A program made the position numbers and the translations under genes. This document shows positions 661-1,058 of a stretch of 32,271 bases of DNA, piece after piece; position 1 is the stretch's first letter; the number at the start of each line of letters is the position of its first letter. The notes below the pieces were generated by a model, which saw only the letters and a program-made list of their open reading frames with translations, did not search any database and was not told where the DNA came from. Source of the DNA: a virus (taxonomy: Duplodnaviria; Heunggongvirae; Uroviricota; Caudoviricetes); the IMG/VR virus record IMGVR_UViG_2711768166_000002; one strand, written 5' to 3'.

Positions 661-728
661 TTAATTTGCTCCAGATACAAGGAATCGCCGCAGCATTGCC
701 ACAGTGATGTATTATTAATCAAACAAAG

Positions 729-743
729 AGACCACTGTGGTCT
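729..743. promoter_or_regulatory. Putative Mnt operator: perfect 15-bp palindrome AGACCACTGTGGTCT between the divergent tailspike and mnt starts
   Basis: Palindrome seen directly. It resembles the P22 mnt operator core (CCAC-N-GTGG) as recalled from memory, but with different flanking bases. Confidence 0.6.
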
Positions 744-806
744 TATTGAGGATGCAACCAGCAGATAATAAGATGCCGATCCACTCACAAAAGCGAGGCA
801 TCAAGA

Positions 807-1058
807 ATGGGAAGAGATGACCCGCAATTTAATCTGCGGCTACCTTACGAATTAAAGGAAAAACTAAAACAGCGAGCCAAATCCAATGGCCGCTCTCTTA
901 ATTCAGAATTAGTTCAGATAGTGACTGATGCTGTATCAAAGCCATCCAAAATTTCAGGCTATCGAGACGATGCGGAACGCATCGCTGATGAGCAGTCCGA
1001 ACTTGTTAAGAAGATGGTGTTTGATACGCTGAAGGATTTGTACAAAAAACCCACCTGA
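807..1058 (+). CDS. mnt: Mnt repressor (ribbon-helix-helix), 83 aa
   Basis: MGRDDPQFNLRLPYELKEKLKQRAKSNGRSLNSELVQIVTDAVSKP...ERIADEQSELVKKMVFDTLKDLYKKPT closely matches P22 Mnt as recalled. GAGG RBS upstream. Confidence 0.9.
   Translation: MGRDDPQFNLRLPYELKEKLKQRAKSNGRSLNSELVQIVTDAVSKPSKISGYRDDAERIADEQSELVKKMVFDTLKDLYKKPT

What the first reader, a model, noticed from the sequence alone, without database searches (positions are those of the whole stretch)
661..1058. Orphan mnt with a variant palindromic operator directly abutting the tailspike start; arc and ant absent
P22 immI is mnt-arc-ant. Here only mnt remains, and its start lies 147 bp from the divergently oriented tailspike start, with a perfect palindrome AGACCACTGTGGTCT between them. 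The Mnt N-terminal DNA-contact strand differs from P22 (GRDDPQFNLRLP versus ARDDPHFNFRMP as recalled), matching the altered operator half-sites. With ant gone, Mnt may now autoregulate and/or gate a Pant-derived promoter reading into the tailspike gene.
Basis: partly seen in the sequence, partly recalled or inferred. Interest (0 to 1): 0.5.

Follow-up and report, generated by a model that had tools for sequence, protein, structure and literature searches.

The report
Leftover Mnt repressor beside phage tailspike
This is a common, already described leftover of the phage P22 "second immunity" region, in which the Mnt repressor, its binding site and its promoter survive next to the tailspike gene but the antirepressor it once controlled is gone; the one modestly new point is that protein and binding site have changed specificity together.

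Summary
On the minus strand a P22-type tailspike gene starts at 660. An 83-aa Mnt homologue occupies 807-1058 (+). The only copy of AGACCACTGTGGTCT in the whole 41-kb prophage lies at 729-743. arc, ant, sar RNA, the Arc operator and a usable Pant are absent. The arrangement is ordinary and published: mnt-only "ant morons" are described for ST64T, ST104 and L. The same module is in SE1, ST160, vB_EcoP-720R6 and Gally (Mnt 100% identical), and in 112 of 5426 complete E. coli genomes. The window matches an E. coli E1 prophage at 100% over positions 300-1620. The variant operator is real. Gln6 Mnt always goes with GACCAC-N-GTGGTC and His6 Mnt with GTCCAC-N-GTGGAC. The half-sites are conserved and the central base is free. 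Orphan mnt is under purifying selection (dN/dS about 0.1). Pmnt is kept in the P22 geometry. The Pant hexamers are decayed in every orphan, so a Pant-derived tailspike promoter is not supported. The most likely reading is an autoregulated, self-contained Mnt module. Published Gally RNA-seq shows tailspike transcription independent of the late operon, so some tailspike link cannot be excluded. Interest is low.

The parts
1..660 (-). 5' part of the tailspike gene (P22 gp9-type head-binding domain). Start codon at 658-660; the gene runs off the window start.
   Evidence: Translation. 96-99% DNA identity to the tailspike 5' ends of vB_EcoP-720R6 and CUS-3. RefSeq 'phage tailspike protein'.
661..707 (-). 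Conserved tailspike leader with a Shine-Dalgarno sequence (GGAG, complement of 669-672). Lies within the stretch whose CUS-3 counterpart is annotated as boundary sequence bsq1; homology to HK620 and CUS-3 ends at 707.
   Evidence: near-identical to the P22 gene 9 leader. (matches end at 707). (bsq1 annotated in CUS-3).
729..743 (.). Mnt operator of the Gln6 class, AGACCAC-T-GTGGTCT. The likely 17-bp footprint is 728-744.
   Evidence: unique in the window. (homologous position to P22 O_mnt). (half-sites intact in 64 of 70 loci; centre base free: T7, G5, C11, A9; conservation begins abruptly at 730).
746..774 (+). Pmnt promoter: -35 TTGAGG (746-751), 17-nt spacer, -10 TAAGAT (769-774). Predicted transcription start near 781-783.
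   Evidence: Positional homology to the annotated P22 Pmnt TTGAGA-17-TATCAT. PWM score 10.5; no window position reached it to 4 decimals, and the top-0.1% cutoff is 5.4. Hexamers conserved in all orphans.
751..779 (-). Decayed remnant of Pant: -35 position 774-779 reads TCGGCA and -10 position 751-756 reads TGCATC. The Arc operator in between is not recognisable.
   Evidence: Alignment with P22. Hexamer census. PWM.
807..1058 (+). mnt: an 83-aa ribbon-helix-helix repressor with the Mnt C-terminal tetramerisation helix. Shine-Dalgarno GAGG at 795-798.
   Evidence: Pfam Arc 2.8e-22 and Repressor_Mnt 2.2e-18. PDB 1mnt 2.8e-34 and 1qey 3e-12. dN/dS 0.11 against ST160 mnt.
1048..1067 (.). Bidirectional intrinsic terminator between the convergent mnt and lipoprotein genes. 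It is stronger on the minus strand (10-bp stem plus UUUUUGU).
   Evidence: -15.4 kcal/mol on the minus strand, -17.1 on the plus strand; z about -2.6. The same element is annotated in epsilon34.
1075..1506 (-). Moron gene for a 143-aa lipoprotein (epsilon34 gp15-like), with its own promoter-like site TTCACA-17-TAGGAT at 1553..1525.
   Evidence: Its homologue GALLYPH_14 is highly expressed in lysogens.
1612..2001 (+). Second moron ORF, 129 aa with a signal-peptide-like N-terminus. It completes the 'ant moron' between gene 16 (2026-3867) and the tailspike.
   Evidence: 95% identical to phage Emek DNA. No Pfam hit.

Best explanation
The region is the reduced 'ant moron' (remnant of immunity region I) of a P22-like (Lederbergvirus) prophage of E. 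coli. It keeps a functional Mnt-family repressor of a natural specificity class (Gln6 instead of His6), its matching dyad operator (GACCAC-N-GTGGTC instead of GTCCAC-N-GTGGAC), the Pmnt promoter immediately next to that operator, and a bidirectional terminator. arc, ant, sar, the Arc operator and a usable Pant have been lost. Inferred mechanism: a Mnt tetramer binds the palindrome centred about 45 bp upstream of the Pmnt start and sets its own level (autoregulation, sign unknown). Also inferred: the tailspike is transcribed mainly by antiterminated late-operon polymerases that read through the 1048-1067 terminator, antisense across mnt and through the operator, not from a Pant-derived promoter. 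Shown here: identity of the parts, co-variation of residue 6 with the half-site, selection on both the gene and the operator, and loss of Pant. Inferred: binding itself, the sign of autoregulation, and why the module is retained.
For: Family identity comes from Pfam Arc plus Repressor_Mnt, 1mnt and 1qey, and 75.9% identity to P22 Mnt. The geometry of operator 17-mer, A, then -35 is identical to P22. Co-variation is complete. All 65 Gln6 loci in a protein-based IMG/VR sample carry GACCAC-type sites and all P22-like His6 loci carry GTCCAC-type sites. The same pairing is seen in phage L, epsilon34, Pluralibacter and Pectobacterium, and in three Gln6 loci that still have arc and ant. The operator shows the signature of a dyad site: half-sites intact in 64 of 70 loci, centre base unconstrained, and the left flank unconserved right up to position 730. 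Orphan mnt has dN/dS 0.11 at dS 0.44. The N-terminal 13 residues are identical even where synonymous sites are saturated. Pmnt scores 10.5, and its hexamers keep A2 and T6 in all orphans. Pant-homologous hexamers are degenerate in all orphans. There is no arc, ant or sar, and no antirepressor is annotated anywhere in the prophage. In Gally (Mnt identical) mnt is transcribed from the prophage and a delta-mnt lysogen could be constructed and survived in macrophages like the wild type, as expected when there is no ant to derepress. The literature already lists mnt-only morons. A paper citing Stormo-lab work states that a single Mnt residue change shifts the preferred site mainly at two adjacent positions. 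Two positions per half-site differ here.
Against: No binding or transcription data exist for this operator. With Pant gone, the P22 rationale for the operator (shutting off Pant) no longer applies, so the selective reason for keeping it is not explained by autoregulation alone. Pmnt matches the consensus at only 8 of 12 positions and was missed by the stricter consensus scan. In Gally, mnt is near background in LB and rises 40-fold together with four neighbouring genes on both strands. That points to regional control rather than simple autoregulation. The loci sampled are phylogenetically related, so the conservation counts overstate independence.
Confidence: 0.72

Rival explanations
1. Guard against foreign antirepressors. 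The orphan Mnt is retained because, made by the prophage, it represses in trans the Pant of superinfecting phages whose immI has the same (Gln6/GACCAC) operator class. This would prevent Ant-mediated induction of the resident prophage. The cis operator would serve only to set the Mnt level. This reading is compatible with the best explanation and answers why the module is kept.
For: Complete Gln6-type immI regions exist. L095, L148/L218, L159/L219 and relatives L220 and L221 carry Mnt MARDDPQFNLRM..., AGACCACCGTGGTCT (L220 and L221 carry ATACCACGGTGGTCT instead), arc, ant and a good Pant (TTGACA-17-CATCAT, score 11.3). Orphan mnt is under purifying selection and is widespread. [quoted passage not shown] A Gln6 Mnt blind to the P22 His6-type operator would be consistent with that.
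Against: The full Gln6 immI loci found are from siphovirus-like metagenomic contigs. They have no match in 5426 E. coli genomes, and their Mnt is only about 58-60% identical. None of the 65 Gln6 loci in the protein-based sample has ant, so a frequent target in the same hosts is not demonstrated. The hypothesis does not explain the strong conservation of the cis operator.
Confidence: 0.3
2. Mnt bound at 729-743 gates transcription into the tailspike gene. The transcription would come either from a promoter in 744-800 reading leftwards or from read-through out of the lipoprotein moron, so tailspike is kept off (or tuned) in lysogens.
For: In Gally, tailspike mRNA rises about 21-fold (log2FC 4.42) in macrophages while the upstream late gene (injection protein) stays at background. 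Late-independent transcription therefore reaches the tailspike. The operator lies in the path of any such transcript. A weak candidate, TTTTGT-16-TATTAT (792..765), is conserved as TATGAT in the Salmonella type. Villafane et al. note that Mnt and Arc may influence read-through into the tailspike.
Against: Pant-homologous hexamers are dead in all orphans. The best tailspike-sense score, 4.9, is about what chance gives in a region this size. In Gally, mnt rises 40-fold at the same time as the tailspike rises, the opposite of a repressor gate. The lipoprotein gene is followed by a good minus-strand terminator, and partial read-through of it would suffice to explain the tailspike signal.
Confidence: 0.15
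3. Functionless remnant. mnt and the palindrome are decaying leftovers of a deletion that removed arc and ant.
For: A few relatives show decay. mnt is truncated to 52 aa in L063 and L068, and there are single-base operator changes in L012, L025, L034, L042, L054 and L063. Delta-mnt has no phenotype in the assays done on Gally. The phage L authors raise this possibility.
Against: dN/dS is 0.11. The DNA-contact strand is identical across lineages whose synonymous sites are saturated. The operator half-sites are conserved while the centre base and the left flank vary freely. The module is present in 112 E. coli genomes and in many Salmonella phages with different C-terminal domains.
Confidence: 0.07
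4. The palindrome acts as an RNA hairpin or weak terminator on the tailspike-sense transcript rather than as a protein-binding site.
For: The consensus scan lists AGACCACAGTGGTCT followed by CTTTGTTTGA as terminator-like on the minus strand.
Against: The hairpin is weak (-9.4 kcal/mol, z -1.0; 26 of 200 shuffles fold as well). The U-rich tail is absent in the Salmonella-type flank. The conservation pattern, with a free centre base and homology to O_mnt, fits a dyad operator.
Confidence: 0.03

Closest known systems
Phage P22 Mnt repressor with O_mnt and Pmnt (immI region)
   Same: 83-aa protein, 75.9% identical. Same two domains (Arc-like RHH and Mnt tetramerisation helix). Arg2, Asn8 and Arg10 are retained. 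A dyad operator with the same spacing lies one base from the -35 of Pmnt. Same place in the genome, between gene 16 and gene 9.
   Different: His6 is replaced by Gln, and there are core changes F9L and M11L. The operator half-site is AGACCAC instead of GGTCCAC, two changes per half-site flanking a conserved G. There is no arc, ant, sar, O_arc or functional Pant, so the known job of Mnt, keeping ant off, has no target in this prophage.
mnt-only 'ant morons' of phages L, ST64T, ST104, SE1, ST160, Gally and vB_EcoP-720R6
   Same: Same architecture: tailspike, about 136-147 nt intergenic region, mnt. Same Gln6 N-terminal strand, same GACCAC-N-GTGGTC operator and same Pmnt. Gally Mnt is 100% identical and 720R6 DNA is 99.1% identical.
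   Different: Only mosaic details differ: the sequence left of the operator, the centre base, the C-terminal domain in the L/ST64T type, and the neighbouring moron genes.
P22 Arc repressor
   Same: The DNA-contact strand of this Mnt (PQFNLRLP) is almost that of Arc (PQFNLRWP), with the same Gln, Asn and Arg at the outward-facing positions. The fold is the same.
   Different: Arc is 53 aa and lacks the Mnt tetramerisation helix and Arg2. Its operator (ATAGTAGAGTGCTTCTATCAT) is unrelated and absent here. Overall similarity is 44% over 45 residues.
Complete Gln6-type immI regions in uncultivated siphovirus-like contigs (L148/L218, L159/L219, L095)
   Same: Gln6 Mnt strand and the identical AGACCACCGTGGTCT operator, placed as in P22 between mnt and arc.
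   Different: These still carry arc, ant and a strong Pant. Their Mnt has a different, longer C-terminal part. They sit among tail genes of a different phage type.

Membership tests
Mnt repressor family (Arc/MetJ ribbon-helix-helix superfamily) | N-terminal Arc-like ribbon-helix-helix domain | tested here: met
   Pfam PF03869, E 2.8e-22, residues 3-50. PDB 1mnt, E 2.8e-34.
Mnt repressor family (Arc/MetJ ribbon-helix-helix superfamily) | C-terminal Mnt tetramerisation helix | tested here: met
   Pfam PF11423, E 2.2e-18, residues 53-80. PDB 1qey, E 3e-12, residues 53-83.
Mnt repressor family (Arc/MetJ ribbon-helix-helix superfamily) | Base-contacting strand residues Arg2, His6, Asn8 and Arg10. 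The residue assignment rests on my recollection of Knight and Sauer's work. | tested here: inconclusive
   Arg2, Asn8 and Arg10 are present; position 6 is Gln, not His. The change co-varies with the operator, so it looks like an altered specificity rather than a loss.
Mnt repressor family (Arc/MetJ ribbon-helix-helix superfamily) | Dyad-symmetric operator of about 17 bp next to the -35 of its own promoter | tested here: met
   729-743 (728-744), then A, then TTGAGG; the same layout as P22. Conservation pattern.
Mnt repressor family (Arc/MetJ ribbon-helix-helix superfamily) | Specific high-affinity binding of a tetramer to the operator | not testable with these tools
   Needs EMSA or footprinting.
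P22 immunity I region (mnt-arc-ant-sar) | Antirepressor gene ant | tested here: not met
   tblastn best E 0.13 in the window and none in the flanks. No antirepressor is annotated in the prophage.
P22 immunity I region (mnt-arc-ant-sar) | arc gene and Arc operator inside the Pant/Pmnt overlap | tested here: not met
   arc matches only mnt itself. The Pmnt spacer atgcaaccagcagataa shows no similarity to ATAGTAGAGTGCTTCTATCAT.
P22 immunity I region (mnt-arc-ant-sar) | sar antisense RNA | tested here: not met
   No Rfam hit at E up to 1 in 1-2200. The P22 control scores 97.8 bits for RF00262.
P22 immunity I region (mnt-arc-ant-sar) | Strong Pant promoter overlapping O_mnt | tested here: not met
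   The homologous hexamers read TCGGCA and TGCATC. No tailspike-sense site scores above 4.9, against 15.5 for P22 Pant.
'ant moron' of P22-like phages (Villafane et al. 2008) | Variable, independently expressed gene set between the last ejection-protein gene and the tailspike gene | tested here: met
   gp16-like 2026-3867, moron 708-2025, tailspike 1-660. Definition taken.

The most novel reading that the evidence does not exclude
The Gln6 Mnt with its GACCAC operator may be a distinct, selectively maintained immunity allele that has become independent of ant. It could act as a trans-acting guard that blocks antirepressor expression by incoming phages of the same operator class. Alternatively it could be a regulator or roadblock that tunes the late-independent tailspike transcription seen in the Gally prophage inside macrophages. 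Either would give an 'orphan' secondary-immunity repressor a job of its own.
Probability: 0.2. Interest if true: 0.45.

Novelty: already known. Interest (0 to 1): 0.2.

Why it matters
Mostly it does not. The locus is a textbook family in a published arrangement, and the same gene has already been annotated, expression-profiled and deleted in phage Gally. There are two small points of value. First, nature provides a clean matched pair (His6/GTCCAC and Gln6/GACCAC, plus a third class, AQFH with GTACC-N5-GGTAC). This parallels the laboratory work on Mnt residue 6 as a specificity determinant and could serve as a ready-made orthogonal repressor-operator set. Second, strong purifying selection on an orphan repressor and its operator, with no antirepressor left in the prophage, poses a modest open question about what such remnants do.

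Tried and rejected
1. I looked for arc, ant, sieA and orf59a homologues by tblastn in the window and in the rest of the prophage; there are none.
2. I looked for sar RNA with Rfam; there is none, and the P22 control was positive.
3. I looked for further operators; there is only one site at up to 2 mismatches in 41 kb.
4. The consensus promoter scan found nothing in 661-806 at its 9-of-12 threshold. A PWM scan then recovered Pmnt but no convincing tailspike-sense promoter.
5. I considered the palindrome as a terminator hairpin. I rejected this because the fold is weak and the tail is not conserved.
6. The genome-contig scan with a Mnt alignment returned only 7 loci. They were useful for diversity but not for statistics.
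7. I tried to read the Stormo-lab papers on Mnt residue 6 (gkh729, PMC506813, PMC140065, PMC55749). None is held. Statements about His6 contacts therefore rest on my recollection plus one sentence in PMC1184061.
8. I checked whether the full Gln6 immI type occurs in E. coli genomes. Megablast found no match. The nearest phage record, Erwinia phage Midgardsormr38, has a different Mnt-like protein and operator.
9. A Pfam scan of ten window proteins found no antirepressor domain.

Full report
**Anatomy**

The window begins inside a tailspike gene on the minus strand. Its start codon is at 658-660, and its first 110 residues are the P22-type head-binding domain. Divergent from it, at 807-1058 on the plus strand, is an 83-aa ORF beginning MGRDDPQFNLRLP. 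Between them lie 146 nt (661-806):
- 661-707 is the conserved tailspike leader. It is nearly identical to the leader of P22 gene 9. Homology to HK620 and CUS-3 stops at 707, within the stretch CUS-3 annotates as a boundary sequence.
- 729-743 is the perfect palindrome AGACCACTGTGGTCT.
- 746-774 reads TTGAGG-17-TAAGAT.

Downstream of the ORF is a hairpin at 1048-1067. It works as a terminator in both directions and is better on the minus strand. Next come a convergent lipoprotein gene (1075-1506, minus strand), another small ORF (1612-2001, plus strand) and the gp16-type ejection protein gene (2026-3867, minus strand). This is the position of the P22 immI region, or "ant moron", between gene 16 and gene 9.

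**Check of the observation**

- The ORF is 75.9% identical to P22 Mnt (E 4e-42).
- It has the Arc-like RHH domain and the Mnt C-terminal helix (Pfam 2.8e-22 and 2.2e-18; PDB 1mnt and 1qey).
- The palindrome is unique in the window at up to 2 mismatches, with 0.06 expected. It is also unique in the whole 41-kb prophage.
- No P22 arc or ant homologue exists in the window or in the rest of the prophage.
- RefSeq annotates no antirepressor anywhere in the prophage.
- Rfam finds no sar RNA, although it finds sar in P22 at 97.8 bits.

**The palindrome is the Mnt operator of a different specificity class**

Read in the mnt-sense orientation, P22 has AGGTCCACCGTGGACCT-A-TTGAGA (operator, one base, Pmnt -35). 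The window has gAGACCACTGTGGTCTt-A-TTGAGG. The palindrome therefore occupies exactly the O_mnt position. Per half-site it differs at two positions that flank a conserved G (GGTCCAC against AGACCAC).

The pairing with residue 6 held in every locus with a recognisable operator.
- In a protein-based sample of 80 IMG/VR loci, all 65 Gln6 loci carry GACCAC-type sites. The 11 P22-like His6 loci carry GTCCAC-type sites.
- Phage L has Gln6 and TAAGACCACGGTGGTCTTA.
- Epsilon34, a Pluralibacter prophage and a Pectobacterium prophage have His6 and GTCCAC.
- A third class (YDEAQFHLRL; Sf101, VSe13 and others) has GTACC-N5-GGTAC.
- Three contigs found through the palindrome itself (L095, L148, L159) have Gln6 Mnt, the same operator and a complete arc-ant unit. 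The Gln6/GACCAC pair is therefore not an artefact of the deletion.

Across 70 Gln6 loci (32 distinct sequences) the twelve half-site positions are almost invariant. The core is intact in 64 of 70. The central base is T, G, C or A in 7, 5, 11 and 9 distinct sequences. Conservation begins abruptly at position 730, with unrelated sequence to the left. That is the pattern expected of a dyad operator whose centre is not contacted.

A paper quoting the Stormo laboratory's work says that a single residue change in Mnt shifts the preferred site mainly at two adjacent positions. From my own recollection, that residue is position 6, but I could not retrieve the primary papers. The strand PQFNLRLP is also almost that of Arc (PQFNLRWP).

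**The orphan is maintained, not decaying**

- Window mnt against ST160 mnt gives dS 0.44, dN 0.048 and dN/dS 0.11.
- Against the phage L type and the L168/L172-type genes (uncultured IMG/VR contigs; protein nearest the Serratia-type P0115) synonymous sites are saturated. The first 13 residues are nevertheless identical or differ by one conservative change.
- The operator-plus-mnt module is present at 80% coverage or more in 112 of 5426 complete E. coli genomes.
- A few relatives do show decay: two truncated genes and six single-base operator changes.

**Promoters**

TTGAGG-17-TAAGAT is positionally homologous to the annotated P22 Pmnt, TTGAGA-17-TATCAT. In a simple PWM scan it scores 10.5. No position in the window on either strand reached that score (fraction 0.0000 of about 322,000); the top-0.1% cutoff is 5.4. 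P22 Pmnt scores 13.1. Its hexamers keep A2 and T6 in all orphans.

P22 Pant (TTGACA-17-TATATT, score 15.5) runs the other way through the same DNA. At the homologous positions the window reads TCGGCA-17-TGCATC. Across all 32 distinct orphan sequences the -10 position is TGCATC, TATATC, TGTATC, TACATC or TTCATC, and never has T at position 6. The -35 position is TCGGCA in 30 of 32. The series TATATT (P22), TATATC (L), TGTATC (ST160), TGCATC (window) looks like stepwise decay.

The best tailspike-sense site anywhere in 661-830 is TTTTGT-16-TATTAT (792..765). It scores 4.9, a level that about 0.14% of random positions reach, so roughly one is expected by chance in a region of this size. The Pmnt spacer no longer resembles the Arc operator. 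A Pant-derived promoter feeding the tailspike is therefore not supported by sequence.

**What is known already**

- Villafane et al. (PMC2629481) named this region the "ant moron". They state that ST64T, ST104 and Para1 contain only mnt plus a gene of unknown function. They also remark that the moron may affect how many late transcripts reach the tailspike gene, and that Mnt and Arc may play a part.
- The phage L genome paper describes the same mnt-only region. [quoted passage not shown]
- DNA searches show the same tailspike-mnt junction in vB_EcoP-720R6 (99.1%), Gally (94.5% DNA identity; Mnt 100% identical), SE1, ST160 and others.
- The window matches a prophage at tRNA-Thr in E. coli strain E1 at 100% over positions 300-1620; the surrounding annotation is.
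- For Gally, Misson et al. (PMC9928086) report that mnt is up 40-fold in macrophages. They also report that a delta-mnt lysogen survives like the wild type.
- Their tables show the tailspike up about 21-fold (log2FC 4.42) and the lipoprotein moron very high, while the upstream injection-protein gene stays at background.

**Interpretation**

The best-supported reading is a self-contained module of Mnt(Gln6), its operator and Pmnt that persists after loss of arc, ant, sar and Pant. Binding of Mnt to 729-743 and autoregulation of Pmnt are inferred from homology, geometry and conservation. They are not shown. The tailspike is most simply served by antiterminated late transcription through the 1048-1067 terminator.

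The Gally data show that some late-independent transcription reaches the tailspike. The likeliest source is read-through from the strongly expressed lipoprotein gene. A weak intergenic promoter cannot be excluded. The simultaneous 40-fold rise of mnt argues against Mnt acting as an effective gate.

Why selection keeps both the gene and the operator is unresolved. A trans-acting guard role against phages with a Gln6-type Pant is possible, because such immI regions exist. However, I found them only in non-E. coli, siphovirus-like contigs.

**Verdict**

The arrangement and even this exact protein are already in the literature. The only modestly new element is the documented natural co-variation of Mnt residue 6 with its operator.

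Noticed in passing
window 1048-1067: A hairpin, AACCCACC-TGAT-GGTGGGTT, flanked by an A-run and a T-run lies between the convergent mnt and lipoprotein genes. It is a bidirectional intrinsic terminator that late transcription must read through to reach the tailspike.
   Followed up: partly
window 1075-1506 (-) and 1612-2001 (+): Two moron genes: a lipoprotein with a weak PEGA-like hit and a 129-aa secreted-looking protein. Homology to 720R6 and Gally ends near 1504, and the second ORF matches phage Emek instead, so there is a mosaic junction here. 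The Gally homologue of the lipoprotein is among the most highly expressed prophage genes.
   Followed up: partly
L022, L033, L050-L054, L059, L063, L068 (about 280-430 nt upstream of mnt): In these relatives the conserved tailspike leader and the first four codons (MTDI...) survive as a dead stub next to the operator. They are followed by an AT-rich insert of about 280 bp and a different tail-fibre start (MTNMPNIT...). This looks like the scar of a receptor-binding module swap.
   Followed up: partly
L063 and L068: mnt is truncated to 52 aa in these two contigs. L063 also has an operator mutation (GTGATC). These are rare examples of real decay of the orphan module.
   Followed up: no
L069-L072; CUS-3 (L215 4694-5223): A different arrangement: a His6-type mnt that lacks the GTCCAC palindrome in the ~110 nt shown upstream of its start. 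The ant homologue (about 57% identical) lies about 0.8 kb upstream and an arc-like ORF (38%) about 0.4 kb upstream. CUS-3 is annotated with two tandem mnt genes plus ant and no arc.
   Followed up: no
L093 (Sf101), L094 (VSe13), L088-L090: A third natural Mnt class with strand YDEAQFHLRL. It has a different dyad (GTACC-N5-GGTAC) at the same place next to the -35, and it is also orphan and adjacent to the tailspike.
   Followed up: partly
L150 4391-4405: The identical palindrome AGACCACCGTGGTCT sits between two divergent RHH-type genes in an unrelated viral contig. One of the proteins has the strand SREDPQMKIRLP (Arg, Gln and Arg at the contact positions, Lys instead of Asn).
   Followed up: no
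L220 and L221, about 70 nt upstream of mnt: Relatives of the complete Gln6 immI have an asymmetric operator, ATACCACGGTGGTCT. One half-site is changed and the other is kept.
   Followed up: no
window 15905-16390 (-): A GIY-YIG/T5orf172-type nuclease gene lies between the lysis genes and the small terminase gene of the prophage. It is probably a homing-endonuclease-like insertion.
   Followed up: no
window 1-2000: The moron and the tailspike 5' end are more AT-rich (GC 0.39-0.44) than the structural genes (0.47-0.52). In Gally, five neighbouring genes on both strands are co-induced in macrophages, which could reflect regional silencing and its relief rather than Mnt control.
   Followed up: no
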